From: Kingella sp. (in: b-proteobacteria)
GTDB lineage: Bacteria > Pseudomonadota > Gammaproteobacteria > Burkholderiales > Neisseriaceae
Length of the DNA: 64,000 bases
Reading direction: 5' to 3'
Assembly: GCF_030527935.1 (NCBI RefSeq)
Contig: NZ_JAUMZV010000001.1
Location: 74,006-138,005 of the forward strand
Shown here: in pieces, positions 5,940-59,486 of the stretch
Numbering within the stretch: the stretch's first letter is position 1
Layout: every line of letters starts with the position of its first letter
Program-made: the position numbers and the translations under genes
Notes under the pieces: generated by a model
Told to the model about the DNA's origin: nothing
Databases searched by the model: none
Seen by the model: the letters and a program-made list of their open reading frames with translations, nothing else

Positions 5940-6238
5940 GCTTTGTCCTTTTGTTTTTCAGGCTGCCCATCTTCGGGCTTGGTTTCGGGCAGCGTGATGT
6001 TTAACGCCAACATTTCCACGCCGTCTTGCTCTTCGCGCGTGATGTTGATGTCGTCCAATTTAATCTTCACATATTTAGACAACACTTCCATCAATTCTTT
6101 TTGCAGCGTGGGCAAATAATCAGGCGTTCTGGCGGTCTCGCGGTTGGCACGCTCTTGCGTGATGATGATTTGCAAACGGTCGCGCGCCACCGCCGCGCTT
6201 TGCGGTTTTCTGCCAAACAAACGGTCTATCAACGACAT
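5936..6238 (-). CDS. minE: cell division topological specificity factor MinE
   Basis: 100 aa. [11 protein letters not shown]...[12 protein letters not shown] matches the MinE N-terminal membrane-targeting and anti-MinCD region. Confidence 0.85.
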
Positions 6239-6241
6239 GGC

Positions 6242-7054
6242 TTATCTCCCAAAAATTTTCTGGAAGAAGCCTTTTTTCTCGGCTTCCAAGAAACGGATTT
6301 CGCGGTTTTCGCCCAGCAAACGCGCCACCACATCTTGATACGCCTGCGCCGCAATCGCATCGTTTTGATGGATAACAGGCTCGCCCGCGTTAGACGCTTG
6401 CAACACATTTTGCGATTCGGGAATCACGCCAATCAACGGAATGCGCAAAATATCCTGAATATCTTGCACCGACAGCATCTCGCCTTTTTCCACACGCTCG
6501 GGCGAATAGCGCGTAATCAGCAAATGCTCTTTCACCGCTTCGCCGCGCTCGGCTTTGCGCGATTTGCTTTGCAAAATACCCAAAATGCGGTCGGAATCGC
6601 GCACGGAAGATACTTCGGGGTTGGTGGTGATAATCGCTTCATCGGCAAAATACAACGCCATCAACGCGCCTGTTTCAATGCCTGCGGGCGAATCGCACAC
6701 CACAAATTCAAAGTTCAAATTGGTAACCAATTCTTTCAACACTTTGCCCACGCCTTCTTTGGTGAGCGCGTCTTTATCGCGGGTTTGCGAAGCGGGCAGA
6801 ATGAACAGGTTTTCGCAATGCTTGTCTTTAATCAGGGCTTGGATGGCGGTTGCTTCACCTTGAATCACGTTAATCAGGTCGTACACCACGCGGCGTTCGC
6901 AGCCCATAATCAAATCCAGATTGCGCAGACCTACGTCAAAATCAATCACACAGGTTTTGTGTCCTTGCAACGCCAAACCTGTTGCGATGCTGGCGGATGT
7001 GGTGGTTTTGCCCACGCCGCCTTTGCCTGATGTAACCACAATAATTTTTGCCAC
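6242..7054 (-). CDS. minD: septum site-determining ATPase MinD
   Basis: 270 aa with the deviant Walker A motif GKGGVGKTT. GTG start with a GAGAG ribosome-binding site. Confidence 0.9.
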   Translation of the reverse strand: MAKIIVVTSGKGGVGKTTTSASIATGLALQGHKTCVIDFDVGLRNLDLIMGCERRVVYDLINVIQGEATAIQALIKDKHCENLFILPASQTRDKDALTKEGVGKVLKELVTNLNFEFVVCDSPAGIETGALMALYFADEAIITTNPEVSSVRDSDRILGILQSKSRKAERGEAVKEHLLITRYSPERVEKGEMLSVQDIQDILRIPLIGVIPESQNVLQASNAGEPVIHQNDAIAAQAYQDVVARLLGENREIRFLEAEKKGFFQKIFGR

Positions 7055-12039: not shown

Positions 12040-12119
12040 CGAGTAGAGTGTGTGGCTTTGCCACTCACCATTTAAGCCATGCTAAACGGTGCGCGAGCAA
12101 GCTCACACACTCTACTCGC
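12040..12119. repeat. family-C stem-loop repeat of about 80 bp
   Basis: GAGTAGAGTGTGTG ... CACACACTCTACTC encloses GCTTTGCCACTCACCATTTAAGCCATGCTAAACGGTGCGCGAGCAAGCTCA. Related copies lie at 47383-47455 and, inverted and truncated, at 26494-26545. Confidence 0.55.
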
Positions 12120-21626: not shown

Positions 21627-24547
21627 TGCAAACTTTATTTGAGTATTTTTCCGAGCGTTTTGTGTTGAAAAAACTGGTGTTTGTAAACAGCGCGGGGCAT
21701 TGTTTTACCGAGATTGACATCGACCGCCATCTGGCGGTGTTCGGGCAGAACAACAAGGGCAAAACTTCAATACTCAACGCGCTGAAACTGTTTCTGCTGC
21801 CCGAGGAAAACCTGAAAGACTGCAAAAATAAGTTTGCTTTCCGCGATTCCAAAGGCGGTTTTTACAGCGGCGGCGAGAGCCACCGCCATTATTTTCCCGA
21901 CGATTTTTCCTTTATCGTGCTGGAAGCCGCAAACCGCCACGGCGTGTTTTGCCAAATCCTGTATCGCAACAAAAACGAGCATGGCTACGGGCGTGTGCTG
22001 CTGGCACAACCGTTTGATGAAATAAGATATTTGTTTTGGAACACGCAAAGCAGCCTGAATGACGGCTTGGGCGAAAAAGCCGCCGATGCTTCGCTGAAAA
22101 CGATGTTGGACACGCTGAAAAAACTGGGCGGCGAGACGGTGGCGGACAAAAAAGACATCCGCCAAAAGCTGTTTAACGAGGGCGAATACAGCATCGAGGA
22201 AGGTCAGTTTTGCATTTTGCCGTTTGCAGGCGGCGGAAACGAGCGCGAAATCAAAGCATTCCGCAATCTGTTCCAGCTTGCCTACGACATTGGTGCGAAT
22301 GAAAAACGCACGCTGCCCGATGCGGCGGCTGCGGTGTTGGAGGGCGAAAAACAACGGGCAAACGAGCGTTTGGACAGCGATTTGCAGGACATTTTGTCCG
22401 AAGAAAAAGAATTAATTGCCGAACGCGATTATTTGCAAGATTGTGCCAACCAGCAGGCAAACTGGCACAGCCTATACCAATTACGCGAGAGTACGCAGCG
22501 GCAGGCATTGGCAGCGGCGCAGGGTTATACCGATTTTGCGGCGGCACTGTTGCAGGCGCAGCAGAATGCGGGCGGCGAAATGCGGCAGTTGCAGGCGCGC
22601 AAGCAAACGCTGTTGGAAGCGAAAACCGCCGCCGAAAACCGCAAAGGCAGCCTGAAAACGGAAAAAGACAAACAGTCGGGCATATTGGGTGAGCGGGAAC
22701 AGCATTATCAAAAAGCCAAAGAAACGGTAAACCGTGCCACCGCCGTGTGCGAGCGTTATCCCAATTGGACGCTGGACAAAATCAAAGAAACGCTGGATGC
22801 GGAAAAACGCCGTTTGCAGCAGCAATCCGAAAGCCTGCAAAGCATAGAAACCGCGCGGCGGGATTTTCAGGCTGCCTTACAACGGCGCAAGCAGGCGGAA
22901 ACGGATATCAAAAAGATTGAAAACCAGCTGGCGCAAAACCGCGACTGCCTGCCCGATTTTCTGCCCGATGCGCACAGCCGCAATGTGTTGGGCAGCCTGA
23001 ACGCCAATTTCAACACCTTGTCGGTGCAGCCCGATGCCGAAGCAAAACAGCGTATTAGCGAGTTTGCCGCGCTGTTTGCCGAGCAAAACGGCGGGCTGGC
23101 TTTTTTGGGCGAAACCATGCCGAAAACGCCGTTTCAGGTTTACAACAAAGCGCAACAGCAGGAATTGCTGCAACAGAATTTGAGTGAAGCAAAGCAGCGT
23201 TACGAAACCGCCAACCAAAAAATGGACACTTTATCCGCCGCGCTTTCGGGCAGCCCTGAAAATCTGGCTGCTGAACAAAAAGCCTGCCAGCGCGAACTGG
23301 CGCGGGTGGAAGACGAACTCAAACTCATCATGCTGTGGGACAGCAATCAGGCGCAATGCGAAGATACATGTCGTCTGAAAGACGAAACGGCGGCACGTTT
23401 GGAAGAATTATCGCTGCAATACGACAGCGCGGCGCAGGCGGCGGATACTGCCAAACAAGAGTTTGACGAGCATTTGGCGTTGCTGTACGAAGTGGAAGAG
23501 CGGCACAAAAACCATCGGCGGCTGCAAGAGCGGCTGAACGCCTGCCAACAGCAGCGCGGCAGCGAATTGGGCGGATTGTCTGCTACTTTGCTGCCCGAGC
23601 CGTGCCAAGCGGCAGAAGGCAGCCTGAAAGCGGTGGAAACCGCGTTTGCCGAGTGGCGCAGGCTGCAAACCGAGCGCGATGCGCTGTTGCAGCAGATGCT
23701 GAAATCGGGCGTGTTGCGCGATGGGCAGTTTGTTGATTTTTCGTATAAAACCGAGTTCGTGCCTGATGAGTTTGACAACTGCTACACCGCCCTGCAAACC
23801 CTGTACAACAATCTGGAATCCGAGCAGCGCAATTTTGACCACCGTCTTGCCGCCCACACCAAACACGCGCTGATTCGTGTGCAGGAATTGGAAGATGCCG
23901 CCAAGCAAATCCGCGAATTTGAACGCGAAATCAATCAGGAATTTTGTAACCACCGCATTTCCGATTTGGAAGAAATCCGCGTCTCTTTCAGGCTGCATCC
24001 GAATTTTGAACAGCTTTTAAACAAGCTGGGCAATATTGACCGCGTTTCGGGCAATGGTTTGGACAAAAATTTCTACGAGCTTATCCGCCAGTTTACCCAA
24101 GCGTTTTTTGACAATAACAGCGGCCGCAGCACGCTGGATATGGCGGGCATTATTCAGGAGGTCGGCTACACCTGCCGCAAAAAGGGCGAAGACAAGGCCA
24201 CCTCCACCAGCCAATCCACCGGCACCAACACCATGATTAACTGCCTGCTGTTTTCCACCCTGCTCAACCGCCTGATGCGCCGTTCCACCGCGCTGACCAT
24301 GCCGCTGGTGTTGGACGAAATGGACAAATTGGACGGCGAAAACCTATCCGAGTTTGTCAAAATTGCCGAAAAGCATCATTTTGCCGTATTCGGCACCTGC
24401 CCCGATCTCACGCCCAAAGTGATGGCGGCGGTGAGCAATTATCTGAATTTGGAATATTTTTCCGCCGAATACCCCTACAACGCCCGCAACACCATTCTCT
24501 ACCACAGCGGCGCGGAACGGTTGATAACTGACGGAGACGCGCCATGA
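21626..24547 (+). CDS. SMC-like ABC ATPase of the MukB/MksB/JetC type
   Basis: 973 aa. Walker A GQNNKGKTSILNALKLFLLPE matches the MukB-head pattern NxxG..GxNGxGKS..ALIPD. About 650 aa of coiled-coil-like sequence follow. The C-terminus has STSQSTGTNTM followed by Walker B LVLDEMDKLD, which parallels MukB LSTGEAIGTGM...LLFLDEA. GAGGAG ribosome-binding site. It overlaps the upstream gene by 1 nt. Confidence 0.7.
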   Translation: MQTLFEYFSERFVLKKLVFVNSAGHCFTEIDIDRHLAVFGQNNKGKTSILNALKLFLLPEENLKDCKNKFAFRDSKGGFYSGGESHRHYFPDDFSFIVLEAANRHGVFCQILYRNKNEHGYGRVLLAQPFDEIRYLFWNTQSSLNDGLGEKAADASLKTMLDTLKKLGGETVADKKDIRQKLFNEGEYSIEEGQFCILPFAGGGNEREIKAFRNLFQLAYDIGANEKRTLPDAAAAVLEGEKQRANERLDSDLQDILSEEKELIAERDYLQDCANQQANWHSLYQLRESTQRQALAAAQGYTDFAAALLQAQQNAGGEMRQLQARKQTLLEAKTAAENRKGSLKTEKDKQSGILGEREQHYQKAKETVNRATAVCERYPNWTLDKIKETLDAEKRRLQQQSESLQSIETARRDFQAALQRRKQAETDIKKIENQLAQNRDCLPDFLPDAHSRNVLGSLNANFNTLSVQPDAEAKQRISEFAALFAEQNGGLAFLGETMPKTPFQVYNKAQQQELLQQNLSEAKQRYETANQKMDTLSAALSGSPENLAAEQKACQRELARVEDELKLIMLWDSNQAQCEDTCRLKDETAARLEELSLQYDSAAQAADTAKQEFDEHLALLYEVEERHKNHRRLQERLNACQQQRGSELGGLSATLLPEPCQAAEGSLKAVETAFAEWRRLQTERDALLQQMLKSGVLRDGQFVDFSYKTEFVPDEFDNCYTALQTLYNNLESEQRNFDHRLAAHTKHALIRVQELEDAAKQIREFEREINQEFCNHRISDLEEIRVSFRLHPNFEQLLNKLGNIDRVSGNGLDKNFYELIRQFTQAFFDNNSGRSTLDMAGIIQEVGYTCRKKGEDKATSTSQSTGTNTMINCLLFSTLLNRLMRRSTALTMPLVLDEMDKLDGENLSEFVKIAEKHHFAVFGTCPDLTPKVMAAVSNYLNLEYFSAEYPYNARNTILYHSGAERLITDGDAP

Positions 24548-25917
24548 AAGTAAACGCCGATGCCGTGCTGCTGATGCTGATTCAGCGCAAAGCGTTCTTT
24601 TTCAGGCTGCTGGACGAAATGGACAAGCACCACGACACCCTGCCGCTGCCGTTTTACAAACAAGCGTTTTTCCACGAGTTGAACCAGATTTCAGACGGCC
24701 TCGAACGCGAAAAATTCCAAAACGCGATGCAGCCTGAAAACCTGTATGACGCGGGTTTGCTGGTGAGTTTGGACCATCACGCAGGCAGCCTGAAATGGCA
24801 GGGCTTCGTCAGCGAAATGTTCCGCCACCTTGACCGCGCCCGCCTGCGCCGCCTGACCGACCCCGAGCTGCAACAGTTCCGCGAGCGCATTTTTTCGCTG
24901 GCAGACAAATTGTCCGCATTGGAAAACCAAGTCGGCAGCGCGCAATGGAACGACACCGTGCGCCCTGCTTTTGACACGCTGCACGAAATCCACGCCCGCA
25001 TCCGCGAAAACACCGAATCGCTGCGCCACCGCGCCGAACACCTTGCCGAAATCGTGGACGGCAGCGACCTTGCCGATGCCGCCGACAGCGAAAAAAGCCG
25101 CGCCGCGCTCGATGAAATCGGCAGCATCTACCGCCGCAGCATCCTGCCGTTGTTAGAATTTCTCAACCAAGACGAAGACATCAAAGACGGCAAAACCCCA
25201 ATGGGCGGCATCGATGCTATTGCCGATTTGTTTTCGCGTACCGGTCAGCACGCCCACGCCCGCCGCGTGCTGCTGGTTAAAAACGGCATCCGCAGCTTCT
25301 ATAAAGACATCTACCGCATCAGGCAGGATATGGAACGCTATGTGCGCCAAAGCGAAACCATGCGCCGCCAGTACGATGCCGTCGAAACCTTGTACAACCG
25401 CCTGCGCCAAGCCGTTGGAACGCTGCAAGACGGCAGACTGCGTGGCAGCAAAATCTCGTTTCAGGCTGCCTTGTCGCACCCCTTTCCCCATTTTGTCCTG
25501 CACAAACCCCATTACGACAAACCCATCAACTGGCAGCAGGGCAGCGAAGCGGCGCGGTTTGCCGAACACCTGCGCGTGCAGCTTGACCGCACCGAGCCGC
25601 CCCAAACCAATATCCGCGTAGCAAGGCAGCCTGAAAACAGCATACAGGCATTAAAACAGCGGCAGCACGAAAGCCGTCTGAAACAGCTTGTCCGCCAATA
25701 CCGCGTGCCCGTTTCAGACGACCTGCACCGCAGCCTGCACGATTATCTGCAACACCGCCTGCCCGACTACACCTTGGCCGATTTGTCCAACGCATTAAGC
25801 TGGCTGCGCATCCTACACCACGTCCGCCCCGTGCCCGTATTTGGGCTGAAAAGCCTACATCACCGCCACCAAACCCTGCACTACCACGCACTCAGCAACG
25901 AGGTCAGACATGATTGA
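24544..25917 (+). CDS. candidate kleisin-like partner (JetA/MksF-sized) of the SMC ATPase
   Basis: 457 aa. The start overlaps the upstream stop (ATGA). The protein is helical and Arg-rich. I base the assignment on size and position only. Confidence 0.35.
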   Translation: MKVNADAVLLMLIQRKAFFFRLLDEMDKHHDTLPLPFYKQAFFHELNQISDGLEREKFQNAMQPENLYDAGLLVSLDHHAGSLKWQGFVSEMFRHLDRARLRRLTDPELQQFRERIFSLADKLSALENQVGSAQWNDTVRPAFDTLHEIHARIRENTESLRHRAEHLAEIVDGSDLADAADSEKSRAALDEIGSIYRRSILPLLEFLNQDEDIKDGKTPMGGIDAIADLFSRTGQHAHARRVLLVKNGIRSFYKDIYRIRQDMERYVRQSETMRRQYDAVETLYNRLRQAVGTLQDGRLRGSKISFQAALSHPFPHFVLHKPHYDKPINWQQGSEAARFAEHLRVQLDRTEPPQTNIRVARQPENSIQALKQRQHESRLKQLVRQYRVPVSDDLHRSLHDYLQHRLPDYTLADLSNALSWLRILHHVRPVPVFGLKSLHHRHQTLHYHALSNEVRHD

Positions 25918-26493: not shown

Positions 26494-26545
26494 GCGAGTA
26501 GGGTGTGTGAGCTTGCTCACGCACCGTTTAGCAATGCTTCATAGT
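26494..26545. repeat. family-C repeat, truncated inverted copy at the right edge of the defence operon
   Basis: GAGTAGGGTGTGTGAGCTTGCTCACGCACCGTTTAGCAATGC. Confidence 0.5.
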
Positions 26546-55937: not shown

Positions 55938-58900
55938 TCAGGCTGCCTTTGGGCTTAATTGTTTCAACACCGCCCTTACGGTTCTCACCCGCGCTTCCAC
56001 ATCTTCCATCACCGCGCTCACGCGCAGTTTGTCCGCCCCCGCCATGCGGTAGTTTTTATTGCTCTGCATCAGCAAAATAATATCGGCAGGCTCGACGCTG
56101 GTGTGTTTGCCGAAGGTGAGCGTGAGCGCGTCGGTGGACGCATCAATCGCGGTGATGCCGAAGGCTTTGGCGGCTAGGCGCAGGCGGTGGCTGTCAAGCA
56201 GGGTTTTGACGGGCTGTTCGGGCAGGCCGAAGCGGTCTACCAGTTCTTCGTGGATGCTGTTGATTTGCCCTTCGGTTTCGCAGGTGGCGAGGCGTTTGTA
56301 GAGGACGAGCCGTTCGTGGATGTCGGGGCAGTAGCCTTCGGGCAGCAGGGCGGGGCTGTGCAGTTTGATTTCGGTGGTGATGCCCAGCGGCGCGTCGAGG
56401 TCGGGCTGGCGGCCTTTTTTGAGGTCGCGCACGGCTTGTTTGAGCATTTCGGTGTAGAGCGTGAAGCCGACCTGTATCATTTCTCCGGATTGTCCTTCGC
56501 CGAGGATTTCGCCTGCGCCGCGGATTTCCAAATCCTGCATGGCAAGGGTGAAACCTGCGCCGAGTTCGTCTGCCGCCGCGATGGCGTCGAGGCGTTTTTC
56601 TGCGTCTTTGGTGATGTATTCGGGCGTGAGCAGGTAGGCGTAGGCTTGGTGGTGGCTGCGGCCGACGCGCCCGCGAAGCTGGTGCAGTTGCGCCAGCCCG
56701 AATTTGTCGGCGCGGTTGATGATGATGGTGTTGGCGTTGGGGATGTCGATGCCGGTTTCGATGATGGTGGAACAGAGCAACACGTTGAATCTTTGCTGCA
56801 AAAAGTCGCGCATGACTTGTTCTAGTTCTCGCTCGCGCAGTTGTCCGTGTGCCACGCCGATGCGGGCTTCGGGCAGCAGGGTTTCCAGCCGCTCGCGCAT
56901 GTTTTCGATGGTATCCACTTCATTGTGCAGGAAAAATATCTGCCCGCCGCGTTTGAGTTCGCGCAATACGGCTTCGCGCACGCTGCCTTCGCTGAACGGT
57001 TTGACAAAGGTTTTGACGGCGAGGCGGCGGCTCGGCGCGGTGGTAATCAGCGAGAAGTCGCGCAGACCTTCGAGCGCCATGCTGAGGGTGCGCGGAATCG
57101 GCGTGGCGGTCATGGTGAGGATATCGACATTGGCGCGCAGGCGTTTGAGCTGCTCTTTCTGGCGCACACCGAAGCGGTGTTCTTCGTCGATAATCACTAA
57201 GCCTAAGTTTTTGAATTTGATGTCGTCCTGCACCAGTTTGTGCGTGCCGATAACGATATCGACCGTGCCGTCTGCCATGCCTTCCAGCGCGGCTTTGGTG
57301 GCTTTGCTGTTGTTGAAACGCGAAAGGCTGGCGACTTTCACGGGGAAATCGGCGAAACGGTCGGCGAAATTTTGCGCGTGCTGCTCGACCAGAAGCGTGG
57401 TCGGGGCGAGTACGGCAACCTGTTTGCCGCCCATTACCGCCACAAACGCGGCGCGCAGGGCGACTTCGGTTTTGCCGAAACCAACATCGCCGCACACAAG
57501 GCGGTCCATCGGCTTCGCCTGCGTTAAATCTTTAATCACGGCGGCGATGGCGGCGGCTTGGTCTTCGGTTTCCTCGTAGCCGAAGCCGTCGGCAAAGGCG
57601 CGGTAGTCGTCTTCGCTGAACGGGAATTTGTGCCCTTCTTGCGCGGCGCGTCGGGCGTAGAGGTTTAAAAGCTCGGCGGCGGTGTCGCGGGCTTTTTCGG
57701 CAGCCTTGCGCTTGGCTTTGTTCCATGTCGCGCTGCCGAGTTTGTGCAGTTGCACGTTTTCATGCGCCTGGCCGGAGTAGCGGCTGATTAAATGCAGTTG
57801 CGAAACAGGCACATAAAGCTGCGCTTCACCTGCGTATTCCAGCAGCATCATCTCCTGCGCTTCGCCGCCCAAATCCATCGTTACCAAGCCCATATAGCGG
57901 CCGATGCCGTGTTCTTCGTGGACAACGGGGTCGCCGATGCTGATTTCGGCAAGGTCGCGCAGCAAACCATCGGACACGGCGGCGTGCTTCTTGCGGCGTG
58001 TGCTGCTGCGGCTTTTGGCGACGTATTGGTAGAGGTCGGATTCGGTGATGATGGCGAGGGCGGGGGTTTTCAGGCTGCCTTTGGGGGCGTCTGAAATATT
58101 TGGTAGGTTGGGTCTTGACCCAACATTTGCGGCGGATTGTTGGGTCTCGACCCAACCTACATTGTTTTCATGCTGCCTTTCAGACGGCGTTTCTCCGTTT
58201 TCAGGCTGCCCGCCCAATCTAAACCCATACGCCAGCGGCGTTACCGTAATGCACAGCCGCGCATCGCTCTGCAAAAACGCCTGCCAGCCGTCCACATTTT
58301 TCGGCTTCAAACCGTGCTGCGCAAAAAAGCCCAGCATGGTTTCGCGCCGCCCCGCGCTTTCGGCGGTAAGCAGAATCCGCCCGCCAAAGGCAGCCTGAAA
58401 ATCCTGCAACGCCTGCAAAGGCTGCTCCGCCTGACGGTTCACCGCCACATCGGGCAGCGCAAACGCCCCACCGCCCAATTCGGGGTGGATTTGCGGATAG
58501 GCTTTCAGGCAGCCTGAAAATTGGTCGGCAGCGAGATACAGATGCTGCGGCGGCAGCGGCGGATAGGTTTCGTCGCACTGCGCCATTTGGAAACGCGATT
58601 TCACTTCCGCCTCAAACCGCCGCGCCTCGGCGTGCACATCGCCCACGCACACCGCCAGCGCGTCCGCGCCCAGATAGTCAAACAGCGTCGCGCAGCCGTC
58701 TTCAAAAAACAGCGGCAGATAATATTCCACCCCCGCGCCAAACTGACCGCCGCTCACGGCTTTGTACACCGCCGCCTCGTTCGGATTGCCGTTCACCTCC
58801 TCGCGGAAACGGCTGCGGAAGATTTTTTGCGCCGCGTCGTCGGTGGGGAATTCGTGCGCGGGCAGCAGGCGGATTTCCGACACGGGCGCGATGGTGCGCT

Positions 58901-59486
58901 GGCTGTCGGGGTCAAACGTTTTGATGCTGTCAATCTCATCGTCAAACAAATCAATGCGATACGGCGTGTCGCTGCCCGTGGGGAACAAGTCCACAATGCC
59001 GCCGCGCACGGCAAATTCGCCGCCCGCCACCACATTCGACACCGCACTGTAACCCGCTTCCACCAGATTCTGCCGTAGCGCGGCAATGTCCAGCCGCTGC
59101 CCCGTTTTCAGCCAAAACGTGCGTCCCAACAGAAACGGCGCGGGCGCAAGACGCTGCATCGCCGTGGCAACGGGCACAAACAGCGCGTCCGCCAGCCCGT
59201 TTTTAAGCTGCCACAACACCGACAGCCGCTCCGACACCAAATCCTGATGCGGCGAAAACCGCTCATAAGGCAGCGTTTCCCAGTCGGGCAGAAACAGCGC
59301 GTTGTCCTGCGGGCGGAAAAACTGCCACGCCGTTTGCAGCCGCAGCGCGGTTTCCGCGTCGGGCGTAAGGATAAGTTTCGGCGGCTTGGGCGGCAGGTTT
59401 TGCGTTAAGAAATAAGGCAGGCTGCCGGCGGTGAGATTGAGCCAGCGGGTGCGCGGGGCGGATGGGGTGGGGAGGGGAAAGGTCAT
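55938..59486 (-). CDS. mfd: transcription-repair coupling factor Mfd carrying an in-frame ~45-aa insertion
   Basis: 1182 aa. It has UvrB-homology, RNAP-interacting and SF2 translocase domains (GDVGFGKTEVALRAAF, DEEHRFG), TRG and a C-terminal D7. The insertion is encoded at 58060-58212. Confidence 0.9.
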   Translation of the reverse strand: MTFPLPTPSAPRTRWLNLTAGSLPYFLTQNLPPKPPKLILTPDAETALRLQTAWQFFRPQDNALFLPDWETLPYERFSPHQDLVSERLSVLWQLKNGLADALFVPVATAMQRLAPAPFLLGRTFWLKTGQRLDIAALRQNLVEAGYSAVSNVVAGGEFAVRGGIVDLFPTGSDTPYRIDLFDDEIDSIKTFDPDSQRTIAPVSEIRLLPAHEFPTDDAAQKIFRSRFREEVNGNPNEAAVYKAVSGGQFGAGVEYYLPLFFEDGCATLFDYLGADALAVCVGDVHAEARRFEAEVKSRFQMAQCDETYPPLPPQHLYLAADQFSGCLKAYPQIHPELGGGAFALPDVAVNRQAEQPLQALQDFQAAFGGRILLTAESAGRRETMLGFFAQHGLKPKNVDGWQAFLQSDARLCITVTPLAYGFRLGGQPENGETPSERQHENNVGWVETQQSAANVGSRPNLPNISDAPKGSLKTPALAIITESDLYQYVAKSRSSTRRKKHAAVSDGLLRDLAEISIGDPVVHEEHGIGRYMGLVTMDLGGEAQEMMLLEYAGEAQLYVPVSQLHLISRYSGQAHENVQLHKLGSATWNKAKRKAAEKARDTAAELLNLYARRAAQEGHKFPFSEDDYRAFADGFGYEETEDQAAAIAAVIKDLTQAKPMDRLVCGDVGFGKTEVALRAAFVAVMGGKQVAVLAPTTLLVEQHAQNFADRFADFPVKVASLSRFNNSKATKAALEGMADGTVDIVIGTHKLVQDDIKFKNLGLVIIDEEHRFGVRQKEQLKRLRANVDILTMTATPIPRTLSMALEGLRDFSLITTAPSRRLAVKTFVKPFSEGSVREAVLRELKRGGQIFFLHNEVDTIENMRERLETLLPEARIGVAHGQLRERELEQVMRDFLQQRFNVLLCSTIIETGIDIPNANTIIINRADKFGLAQLHQLRGRVGRSHHQAYAYLLTPEYITKDAEKRLDAIAAADELGAGFTLAMQDLEIRGAGEILGEGQSGEMIQVGFTLYTEMLKQAVRDLKKGRQPDLDAPLGITTEIKLHSPALLPEGYCPDIHERLVLYKRLATCETEGQINSIHEELVDRFGLPEQPVKTLLDSHRLRLAAKAFGITAIDASTDALTLTFGKHTSVEPADIILLMQSNKNYRMAGADKLRVSAVMEDVEARVRTVRAVLKQLSPKAA
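58060..58212. mobile_element. in-frame hairpin mini-element inside mfd carrying Neisseria-type DUS
   Basis: kingDUS at both ends. Internally GGCGTCTGAA (58086-58095) and TTCAGACGGC (58178-58187), which is the reverse complement of GCCGTCTGAA. They flank the cruciform GGTAGGTTGGGTCTTGACCCAACATTTGCGGCGGATTGTTGGGTCTCGACCCAACCTAC. Confidence 0.65.

What the first reader, a model, noticed from the sequence alone, without database searches (positions are those of the whole stretch)
58060..58212. In-frame hairpin mini-element with Neisseria-dialect DUS inside mfd
A ~150-bp element is inserted in mfd without breaking the frame. The encoded peptide reads ...GGQPENGETPSERQHENNVGWVETQQSAANVGSRPNLPNISDAPKGSLKTPA.... 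The element contains a cruciform, GGTAGGTTGGGTCTTGACCCAAC ... GTTGGGTCTCGACCCAACCTAC. It also contains TTCAGACGGC, the reverse complement of the canonical Neisseria DUS GCCGTCTGAA, plus a one-mismatch copy, GGCGTCTGAA. Both are flanked by host-dialect kingDUS. A foreign-dialect DUS inside an essential-type gene suggests interspecies DNA acquisition followed by tolerance as a protein insertion.
Basis: seen in the sequence. Interest (0 to 1): 0.6.

Follow-up and report, generated by a model that had tools for sequence, protein, structure and literature searches.

The report
In-frame REP hairpins and DUS in mfd
A pair of palindromic "REP" repeats wrapped in DNA-uptake sequences of two dialects sits in frame in a surface loop of the repair protein Mfd of an oral Kingella; related strains and species swap different inserts at this same loop, so it records gene flow between species rather than one mobile element.

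Summary
About 126-147 bp at 58066-58212 encode GQPENGETPSERQHENNVGWVETQQSAANVGSRPNLPNISDAPKGSLK. No other Mfd outside this clade has this stretch.

The insert is a mosaic, not a discrete mini-element. Its layout is kingDUS, GCCGTCTGAA, a one-mismatch kingDUS, an inverted doublet of a GTAG-headed REP hairpin, GGCGTCTGAA, kingDUS. Only the 22-nt hairpin recurs elsewhere. It is a common, mostly intergenic REP in Neisseriaceae of every DUS dialect, and it flanks a RAYT-like transposase in Legionella.

The insert lies inside domain D3, not in the D3-D4 linker. It falls after position 60 of the 73-position Pfam D3 model, in a loop that is 2-8 residues long in other bacteria.

In 120 close orthologue clusters this loop has at least 12 in-frame architectures. 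They include three REP types, DUS of three dialects, a 90-aa module, a mini-intein and one near-empty allele.

mfd is shared between kingDUS Kingella and AG-DUS Neisseria bacilliformis. Identity is 86-97% in mfd against about 80% in the flanks, and the DUS dialect swaps at homologous sites. Interspecies acquisition is therefore supported, by allele exchange rather than transposition. In-frame REPs in repair genes are already known, so this is a new variant of that kind.

The parts
55938..59486 (-). mfd (transcription-repair coupling factor), intact, 1182 aa
   Evidence: ORF list and translation. All Mfd Pfam domains are present. It aligns to E. coli Mfd over residues 35-398 and 476-1180.
58066..58212 (-). 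The whole in-frame cassette in the D3 loop. It encodes about aa 426-474 and is 42 codons longer than the near-empty allele P0111.
   Evidence: The Pfam MFD_D3 match stops at model position 60 (aa 424) here, but runs 1-73 in P0111.
58197..58209 (-). Left kingDUS GCAGCCTGAAAAC, read as QPEN (module K1). This module is also present in the empty allele.
58179..58188 (-). Neisseria-type DUS core GCCGTCTGAA, read as (T)PSE. Its 12-mer prefix is AC.
58167..58176 (-). Degenerate kingDUS GCAGCATGAA (one mismatch)
   Evidence: Read from the sequence
58139..58160 (-). Left REP unit GTAGGTTGGGTCGAGACCCAAC: GTAG head, 8-bp stem, 2-nt loop. Read as VGWVETQ.
   Evidence: The same motif occurs in intergenic doublets in many Neisseriaceae and flanks a Y1_Tnp gene in Legionella feeleii.
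58125..58138 (-). 14-nt spacer of the doublet (AATCCGCCGCAAAT). The N. bacilliformis-type alleles have a 20-nt version, which is an in-frame 6-nt difference.
   Evidence: This spacer was found only in mfd in the metagenome scan.
58103..58124 (+). Right REP unit in inverted orientation, GTAGGTTGGGTCTTGACCCAAC on the + strand. Read as VGSRPNLP on the coding strand.
58086..58095 (+). Inverted one-mismatch Neisseria-type DUS GGCGTCTGAA. In the sister allele L005 this position is GTCGTCTGAA, the mucDUS core.
58066..58078 (-). Right kingDUS GCAGCCTGAAAAC, read as GSLK (module K2). It aligns to GCCGTCTGAAAA in the N. bacilliformis-type alleles.
58390..58399 (+). Intragenic inverted kingDUS (DFQAAF). 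The homologous site is a Neisseria-type DUS (DFQTAF) in alleles L002, L003 and L007.

Best explanation
The element is a passenger DNA mosaic, not a protein adaptation or an autonomous transposon. Its core is an inverted doublet of a GTAG-type REP hairpin, REPIN-like and of the class mobilised by RAYT transposases. DNA-uptake sequences of two dialects bracket that core.

It lies in frame in a normally very short surface loop inside domain D3 of Mfd.

**Shown**
- The loop is an insertion hot spot in the Kingella oralis / N. bacilliformis gene pool. It holds at least 12 in-frame architectures bounded by kingDUS, read as QPEN on the left and GSLK on the right.
- Cassette type is almost uncoupled from the flanking mfd sequence.
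- mfd alleles are shared between kingDUS Kingella and AG-DUS N. bacilliformis.
- The DUS dialect differs between alleles at homologous positions.

**Inferred**
- A REP doublet entered next to a pre-existing loop DUS. It came either by single-strand RAYT-type transposition or by microhomology (DUS-DUS) integration of an intergenic DUS-REP-DUS fragment taken up by transformation.
- Only copies in the one open frame survived selection on Mfd.
- Alleles then spread and recombined through natural transformation, using the conserved mfd flanks as homology.
- The GCCGTCTGAA copies in this kingDUS host were acquired while the cassette resided in, or was imported from, an AG-DUS genome such as N. bacilliformis.
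For: - **Anatomy and frame:**
- **REP identity:** the hairpin has a GTAG head plus palindrome, as Di Nocera 2013 (PMC3733652) defines the class. In Neisseriaceae it mostly forms inverted doublets outside long ORFs: 43 of 46 non-mfd hits lie in open frames under 300 aa. In Legionella feeleii the same hairpin flanks a RAYT-like Y1_Tnp gene.
- **An insertion, not ancestral:** nearly all of 150 diverse representatives align in two pieces, most with the second piece starting near aa 476. The loop is 2-8 aa in 40 aligned Mfds. The D3 model match is contiguous in the near-empty allele P0111.
- **Hot spot:** 12 architectures were found among 120 orthologue clusters. They are intermixed in the core-protein clustering. 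Flank divergence is only 1.07-1.43 times higher between different-type pairs than between same-type pairs.
- **Interspecies exchange:** the flanks of L003, L129 and L007 carry Neisseria-type DUS, while their mfd carries kingDUS. mfd is 86-96.6% identical across the species groups against 78-81% for flanking ORFs. Within N. bacilliformis the flanks are 97-99% identical but mfd only 92-95%. Published ANI between K. oralis and K. potus, the closest relative of N. bacilliformis, is about 79% (PMC10715097). N. bacilliformis is an AG-DUS species and K. oralis a kingDUS species (PMC3630211).
- **Dialect swaps at homologous sites:**
- **REP-adjacent DUS normally match the resident dialect:**
Against: - No copy of this REP outside mfd is seen in the host's 64 kb, so the REP may not be active in this genome.
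- No RAYT gene was looked for in Kingella or N. bacilliformis.
- The original entry mechanism cannot be read from the sequence.
- The only near-empty allele could be a secondary deletion rather than the ancestral state. Its junction differs from the filled alleles by 5-8 nt.
- No outgroup Neisseriaceae Mfd (K. denitrificans, K. potus, N. elongata) could be retrieved.
- Higher mfd identity than in the flanks could partly reflect stronger constraint on mfd than on small hypothetical ORFs.
- GCCGTCTGAA differs from kingDUS by only two bases, so some dialect differences could be point mutations.
Confidence: 0.72

Rival explanations
1. A discrete non-autonomous mobile mini-element, MITE-like, with DUS-bearing inverted ends, transposed once into mfd and duplicated the kingDUS target.
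For: The unit is symmetric: DUS, REP, inverted REP, inverted DUS. It is flanked by a 13-nt direct repeat of kingDUS, and one allele has a single kingDUS at the site.
Against: - Only the 22-26-nt hairpin matches anything in 127 loci.
- The REP spacer occurs only in mfd.
- The two kingDUS lie in different reading frames and 131 nt apart. Excising the insert plus one kingDUS copy neither restores the frame nor regenerates the empty allele.
- A homologous cassette exists with other boundaries, lacking the inner DUS pair and carrying GCCGTCTGAA in place of the right kingDUS.
- From general knowledge, IS200/RAYT-type elements make no target duplications.
Confidence: 0.08
2. The Neisseria-type DUS arose in place, by point mutation of kingDUS or by chance, or they are relics of an older dialect of the lineage. 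They would then say nothing about interspecies transfer.
For: The two dialects differ at only 2 of 10 positions. The 12-mer prefix here is AC, neither AT nor AG. The right-hand copy is imperfect. The window holds two more GCCGTCTGAA inside another ORF.
Against: - Chance expectation is 0.15 per 64 kb.
- Two N-type copies sit directly against the REP doublet in mirror arrangement.
- A kingDUS host provides no drive toward that dialect.
- A homologous REP2 cassette, with GCCGTCTGAA in place of the right kingDUS, occurs in AG-DUS N. bacilliformis genomes, and dialect islands are visible around mfd.
Confidence: 0.12
3. The insert is kept because it does something. Either the extra loop changes Mfd regulation (D3 is lineage-specific and mobile), or the strong mRNA/DNA hairpin regulates expression or marks a recombination break point.
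For: - Nearly all alleles of the clade (119 of 120 clusters) carry some insert.
- The hairpin is very stable.
- D3 moves by tens of angstroms during the Mfd cycle (PMC7385628).
- Hairpin repeats can be cut in incoming single-stranded DNA in Neisseria (Ssn/NTS system, PMC11893778).
Against: - The inserted peptides are unrelated between alleles (three REP types, an intein, a 90-aa module). Their only conservation is that imposed by the DNA repeats.
- There is no promoter or terminator signal and no Rfam family above threshold.
- A near-empty allele exists.
Confidence: 0.08

Closest known systems
Intragenic GTAG-type REPs in DNA-repair genes (Di Nocera, De Gregorio & Rocco 2013, PMC3733652)
   Same: GTAG-headed palindromes, often as dimers, inserted in frame and encoding 20-30 or more amino acids. 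They are frequent in replication and repair genes (uvrA, uvrB, uvrD, polA, recBCD) and are thought to sit in permissive loops.
   Different: mfd, Kingella and N. bacilliformis are not listed in that paper. Here the REP doublet is embedded in DUS of two dialects, and the site is polymorphic with many alternative cassettes.
Rickettsia palindromic elements (RPE)
   Same: Palindromic repeats inserted in frame in functional protein genes and tolerated as extra surface peptides, as summarised in PMC3733652.
   Different: RPEs are high-copy in their own genome, and several belong to the CGTC class. This host window has no other copy. No transformation or DUS is involved in Rickettsia.
REPIN-RAYT systems (Bertels & Rainey; Nunvar et al.)
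   Same: Two inverted REPs a short distance apart that fold into one long hairpin. The same REP core flanks a Y1-transposase gene in Legionella feeleii.
   Different: The described Neisseria REPIN is the dRS3/NTS type, ATTCCCGCGCAGGCGGGAATC, not this one. No cognate RAYT or REPIN population has been shown in the host.
Neisserial intergenic mosaic elements and minimal mobile elements (general knowledge)
   Same: Variable cassettes delimited by short conserved repeats and exchanged by transformation and homologous recombination between conserved flanks.
   Different: Those are intergenic and delimited by dRS3. Here the mosaic is translated, is delimited by kingDUS in two fixed reading frames, and must stay in frame.
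Intragenic DUS in genome-maintenance genes and permissive regions (Davidsen 2004; Treangen 2008, PMC2397512; Frye 2013, PMC3630211)
   Same: DUS accumulate inside repair genes in permissive regions, often arriving by recombination rather than point mutation.
   Different: Here two or three dialects coexist in one loop, and the dialect differs between alleles at the same position.

Membership tests
GTAG-type REP / REPIN | 5' GTAG head followed by an imperfect palindrome (stem 5-13 bp, loop 2-20 nt) | tested here: met
   GTAG-GTTGGGTC-GA/TT-GACCCAAC has an 8-bp stem (10 with flanking pairs) and a 2-nt loop. The criteria are as in Table 1 of PMC3733652.
GTAG-type REP / REPIN | Two units in inverted orientation a short distance apart, folding as one hairpin | tested here: met
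   The units at 58139-58160 (-) and 58103-58124 (+) are 14 nt apart. The predicted fold pairs the two units, with z = -6.2 and -7.0.
GTAG-type REP / REPIN | Dispersed multicopy family, mostly extragenic, in the genome that carries it | tested here: inconclusive
   The feature is met across Neisseriaceae as a group, in about 40 loci, with 43 of 46 non-mfd hits outside long ORFs. In the host's 64 kb the only copies are the two in mfd. The rest of the host genome was not available.
GTAG-type REP / REPIN | A cognate RAYT (Y1 transposase) gene flanked by the same REP | tested here: inconclusive
   The feature is met in Legionella feeleii L015, where a Y1_Tnp ORF at 6054-6602 is flanked by the same hairpin on both sides. 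It was not examined in Kingella or N. bacilliformis.
In-frame intragenic palindromic insertion (RPE-like) | Lies wholly inside an ORF, keeps the frame, and is absent from orthologues | tested here: met
In-frame intragenic palindromic insertion (RPE-like) | The decorated protein is made and is functional | not testable with these tools
   Only domain integrity and conservation of the frame in all 120 clusters can be shown.
Neisseria AT/AG-DUS | 10-mer core GCCGTCTGAA with an AT or AG prefix | tested here: inconclusive
   The core is exact at 58179-58188, but the prefix is AC. The second copy has one mismatch, GGCGTCTGAA.
Neisseria AT/AG-DUS | The dominant over-represented repeat of the resident genome | tested here: not met
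   There are 3 copies against 147 kingDUS in the window. It is therefore foreign to this host's dialect.
MITE / discrete mini-transposon | The same complete unit repeated at other loci, with defined ends and a target-site duplication | tested here: not met
   No match beyond the hairpin in 127 loci. The spacer was found only in mfd. The kingDUS flanks are out of register and do not behave as a target-site duplication.
Neisserial intergenic mosaic element / minimal mobile element | Repeat-delimited variable cassettes between conserved flanks, in intergenic DNA | tested here: not met
   Cassette behaviour is present. However, the site is coding and is delimited by kingDUS, not dRS3.

The most novel reading that the evidence does not exclude
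The D3 loop of Mfd in oral Neisseriaceae is a translated, DUS-delimited cassette site. kingDUS in two fixed reading frames (QPEN and GSLK) bound interchangeable modules: three REP families, an orphan 90-aa domain and a mini-intein.

These modules are shuffled by transformation within and between species that use different DUS dialects. The uptake sequences are rewritten to the resident dialect after each transfer. The locus would therefore be a natural record of how DUS dialect barriers are crossed and how DUS are translated after transfer.
Probability: 0.4. Interest if true: 0.7.

Novelty: new variant of a known kind. Interest (0 to 1): 0.5.

Why it matters
In-frame REP insertions in repair genes are already documented, so the element alone is a curiosity.

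The context adds more. One short loop of a conserved repair protein accepts many unrelated inserts without breaking the gene. Alleles of that gene circulate between species whose uptake-sequence dialects are thought to limit exchange.

Different dialects at the same nucleotide positions in different alleles give a concrete place to study two things: how DUS arise and are converted after transfer, and how repeats shape recombination in naturally competent bacteria. It also warns annotators that REP- and DUS-derived peptides can be part of real proteins.

Tried and rejected
- **Cassette peptide search.** A search of the protein database with the 52-aa cassette peptide found nothing, because the word index found no candidate. 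It gives no census of REP-derived peptides in other proteins.
- **90-aa module search.** The module of the N. bacilliformis allele returned one 50-aa fragment only. It has no Pfam family.
- **Structure prediction.** AlphaFold2 on the full protein with 22 close orthologues gave mean pLDDT 31.5. This was too poor to place the insert on a structure, so it was not used and no fold search was run.
- **Rfam.** Only sub-threshold matches to eukaryotic miRNA hairpin models, 33 bits against a gathering score of 94. These were rejected as generic hairpin hits.
- **Promoter and terminator scan.** Nothing was found in the element.
- **Metagenome scan.** The scan for the doublet's spacer found only one more mfd allele, so no source locus was identified.
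- **Genome scan.** The species list is therefore incomplete.
- **Outgroup Neisseriaceae Mfds.** They could not be retrieved, because the homologue search lists only the 120 best hits, all from the same clade.
- **Target-site duplication by the kingDUS pair.** Considered and rejected on frame and junction sequence.
- **Assembly artefact.** Considered and rejected, because independent assemblies carry the same cassette.
Full report
**1. The observation**

On the coding (minus) strand, 58212 to 58066 reads:

GCAGCCTGAAAAC (kingDUS) - GGAGAAAC - GCCGTCTGAA (Neisseria-type DUS) - AG - GCAGCATGAA (kingDUS with one mismatch) - AACAAT - GTAGGTTGGGTCGAGACCCAAC - AATCCGCCGCAAAT - GTTGGGTCAAGACCCAACCTAC - CAAATAT - TTCAGACGCC (inverted Neisseria-type DUS with one mismatch) - CCCAAAG - GCAGCCTGAAAAC (kingDUS).

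- The hairpin core occurs only at these two places in the window, against 0.02 expected.
- GCCGTCTGAA occurs 3 times, against 0.15 expected. The kingDUS core occurs 147 times.
- That is 2.3 kingDUS per kb, which matches the density published for K. oralis: 5918 in 2.4 Mb (PMC3630211).
- The stretch folds much better than shuffled versions, with z = -6.2 as DNA and -7.0 as RNA.
- mfd (55938-59486, minus strand) is an unbroken 1182-aa ORF with all Mfd domains.
- Only one of the three coding-strand frames through the cassette lacks stop codons, and it is the frame in use.
- The protein is identical to an NCBI Kingella sp. entry. Four other assemblies carry the same cassette, so it is not an artefact.

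**2. It is an insertion, and it lies inside D3**

- E. coli Mfd aligns in two blocks: query 35-398 and query 476-1180.
- Nearly all of 150 diverse representatives from a 1.84-billion-protein library also align in two pieces, most with the second piece starting near residue 476.
- In an alignment of 40 of them, only 2-8 residues separate the conserved 'PL..GF' strand from the '..ITE.DL' strand. The window protein has about 55 residues there.
- The Pfam D3 model (PF21132, 73 positions) matches positions 1-60 and stops at residue 424 in the window protein.
- The same model matches 1-73 without interruption in the near-empty allele P0111, in P0121 and, to position 72, in P0124.
- The insert therefore splits D3 before its last conserved segment. 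It is not in the D3-D4 linker.
- D3 is described as a non-conserved, lineage-specific and mobile domain (PMC7864632; PMC7385628). That fits a permissive site.

**3. What the hairpins are**

- Each unit has the GTAG head and palindrome that define the GTAG class of REPs (PMC3733652). The two units are inverted, like a REPIN.
About 40 were from Neisseriaceae: N. sicca, N. perflava, Neisseria spp., Kingella pumchi, an uncultured Kingella, Neisseriaceae bacterium B1, Alysiella crassa and Eikenella glucosivorans. Many others were from Legionella, Azospirillum and Leptolinea.
- In the Neisseriaceae loci the motif usually forms inverted doublets in intergenic DNA next to DUS. Of 46 non-mfd hits, 43 lie in open frames shorter than 300 aa.
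- In Legionella feeleii the same hairpin flanks a Y1_Tnp (RAYT-like) gene on both sides, which is a typical REPtron.
- The host window holds another REP type (GTAG(G/A)GTGTGTG...) at two intergenic sites, 12043-12115 and 26498-26525. It has no other copy of the mfd type.

**4. It is not a discrete mini-element**

- BLAST of the 200-bp region against all 127 loci held at that point matched only the 22-26-nt hairpin outside mfd alleles.
- A metagenome scan for the doublet's specific spacer found only one more mfd allele.
- The two flanking kingDUS lie in different frames (QPEN and GSLK) and 131 nt apart. Removing the insert plus one kingDUS copy would shift the frame, and it does not reproduce the empty allele.

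**5. The site is a cassette hot spot**

Among 120 orthologue clusters at 89-100% identity, protein length ranges from 1156 to 1403 aa. The segment between PLAYGF and LYQY ranges from 30 to 223 aa, and is longer still in two alleles. Twelve architectures were counted. K denotes kingDUS. Letters for the other DUS cores are upper case when direct and lower case when inverted: N/n = GCCGTCTGAA and M/m = GTCGTCTGAA. In the tallied architectures 'n' stands for either inverted core.

| Architecture | Clusters |
|---|---|
| K-REP1 doublet-n-K-M-REP3 doublet-K (K. oralis type) | 38 |
| K-REP1 doublet-n-K | 33 |
| K-REP2 doublet-N (N. bacilliformis type) | 25 |
| K-single REP1-K | 7 |
| K-N-REP2 doublet-n-K (window type) | 5 |
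| Alleles with a roughly 90-aa module lacking any Pfam hit, between two REP1 cassettes | several |
| Mini-intein alleles | 2 |
| Single kingDUS only (P0111) | 1 |

- The DNA of ten alleles confirms that each peptide motif is a repeat read in frame.
- Architectures are intermixed in a clustering of the rest of the protein.
- Pairs with different cassettes are only 1.07-1.43 times more divergent in their flanks than pairs with the same cassette.
- mfd DNA shows block-wise mosaic identity between alleles.
- All of this points to frequent recombination.

**6. Dialects and species**

N. bacilliformis is an AG-DUS species and K. oralis is the kingDUS species (PMC3630211). Their wider groups are about 79% ANI apart (PMC10715097).

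- In N. bacilliformis loci the flanks carry only Neisseria-type DUS, while mfd carries kingDUS at the same positions as in Kingella. These loci are L007 (type strain), L129 (isolate GCA_001063965.1) and L003.
- L007 and L129 also have a kingDUS-rich block just downstream of mfd that L003 lacks.
- mfd is 86-96.6% identical between N. bacilliformis and kingDUS genomes, while neighbouring ORFs are 78-81% identical.
- Within N. bacilliformis the flanks are 97-99% identical, but mfd only 92-95%.
- At nucleotide 1087 of mfd the DUS is king-type (DFQAAF) in four alleles and Neisseria-type (DFQTAF) in three.
- The DUS at the 3' end of the gene is K in most alleles and N in L005.
- The window's right-hand kingDUS aligns base for base with GCCGTCTGAAAA of the N. 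bacilliformis-type cassette.
- That cassette is homologous to the window's. It has the same REP units and a spacer differing by an in-frame 6 nt. It lacks the inner pair of Neisseria-type DUS.
- Elsewhere in Neisseriaceae, 23 of 27 DUS lying within 90 nt of this REP are of the resident dialect. Neisseria-type DUS directly against the doublet in a kingDUS genome are therefore atypical.
- Some species, such as K. pumchi and Neisseria sp. WLZKY-1, carry both dialects side by side. They are alternative donors.

**7. Mechanism**

Shown:
- a permissive D3 loop;
- repeat-derived cassettes kept in frame;
- recombination that decouples cassette type from the flanks;
- an mfd allele pool spanning two dialect groups;
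- dialect differences at homologous sites.

Inferred:
- A REP doublet first entered beside a loop DUS, by RAYT-type transposition or by DUS-microhomology capture of an intergenic DUS-REP-DUS fragment.
- Selection on Mfd filtered for the single open frame.
- Alleles then spread by transformation with homologous recombination in the mfd flanks.
- The Neisseria-type DUS were acquired in an AG-DUS background.

Because the left and right kingDUS are in different frames, simple DUS-by-DUS deletion of a single cassette would be frameshifting. Recombination between like-framed DUS of duplicated cassettes is in frame. This fits the allele series observed (inference).

**8. Comparison with what is known**

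- In-frame GTAG REPs, often dimers and often in replication and repair genes, were catalogued by Di Nocera et al. 2013. mfd and these taxa were not included.
- Rickettsia RPEs are the classic analogue.
- DUS are known to be enriched in genome-maintenance genes and in permissive regions, often arriving by recombination.
- A literature search for mfd with DUS and Neisseria found nothing on this locus.
- The element is therefore a new variant of a known kind. The polymorphic, DUS-delimited coding cassette site and the cross-dialect allele pool are the parts I could not find described.

**9. Limits**

- No outgroup Neisseriaceae Mfd was retrieved.
- The host genome beyond 64 kb was not available.
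- RAYT genes in these taxa were not examined.
- The structure prediction failed, with mean pLDDT 31.5.
- The peptide searches failed.
- The direction and number of transfers remain inferred.

Noticed in passing
L130:4001-8203 (proteins P0105, P0118): In two close mfd alleles (96% identical to the window's protein) the same D3 loop holds a mini-intein of about 245 aa instead of REP and DUS. It has canonical junctions (...NSHA|CFVAGT...VHN|CAPST...) and PT-HINT/Hint_2 Pfam hits. It also brings its own short flanking residues.
   Followed up: partly
L007:4400-4640 (N. bacilliformis ATCC BAA-1200 mfd; also P0077, P0087, P0096, P0112): A module of about 90 aa (ARPRYTDGTPMHIGDYVRVEQAWHGRIV...) sits in frame between two kingDUS-REP1 cassettes in the same loop. 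It has no Pfam family, and the homologue search was uninformative.
   Followed up: partly
L007:6877-9603 and L129:11239-12744: In N. bacilliformis genomes whose flanks carry only Neisseria-type DUS, a kingDUS-rich block lies just downstream of mfd. It is 94-95% identical to a kingDUS Kingella locus (L001) and is absent from L003. It looks like an imported island of Kingella DNA.
   Followed up: partly
window 58390-58399 (and nt 1087 of mfd in L002, L003, L007): The same intragenic DUS position is king-type (TTCAGGCTGC, DFQAAF) in some alleles and Neisseria-type (TTCAGACGGC, DFQTAF) in others, so the dialect swap changes an amino acid. A similar swap occurs at the DUS overlapping the mfd stop codon, which is K in most alleles and N in L005.
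   Followed up: partly
window 12043-12115 and 26498-26525: A second GTAG-type REP family (GTAGAGTGTGTG... / GTAGGGTGTGTGAGC...) lies in intergenic DNA of the host, once as a doublet flanked by kingDUS. A closely similar hairpin (GTAGGGTGTGTGAGC...) is read in frame (RRVCELVSR...ACPQ.HTL) in the 1212-aa K. oralis mfd alleles.
   Followed up: partly
window 24690-24699 and 25673-25682: The other two GCCGTCTGAA copies of the window both lie inside one 457-aa ORF (24544-25917) with no Pfam family. This may be another segment of foreign-dialect origin.
   Followed up: no
L015:5800-6960 (Legionella feeleii), also L072 and L058: The identical hairpin GTAGGTTGGGTC..GACCCAAC flanks a RAYT-like Y1 transposase gene and forms long tandem arrays in Legionella. 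The same REP core is therefore shared by very distant bacteria.
   Followed up: partly
L013 and L036 (Neisseria sp. WLZKY-1, Kingella pumchi): These genomes carry Neisseria-type and king-type DUS in similar numbers, often directly adjacent (for example GGCCGTCTGAAAAGGCAGCCTGAAA). They appear to be dual-dialect species.
   Followed up: no
window 58504-58518: Inside mfd, an inverted kingDUS overlaps a simDUS to form the dyad TTCAGGCTGCCTGAA (QFSGCLK). This is the overlapping-pair arrangement reported for Simonsiella muelleri.
   Followed up: no
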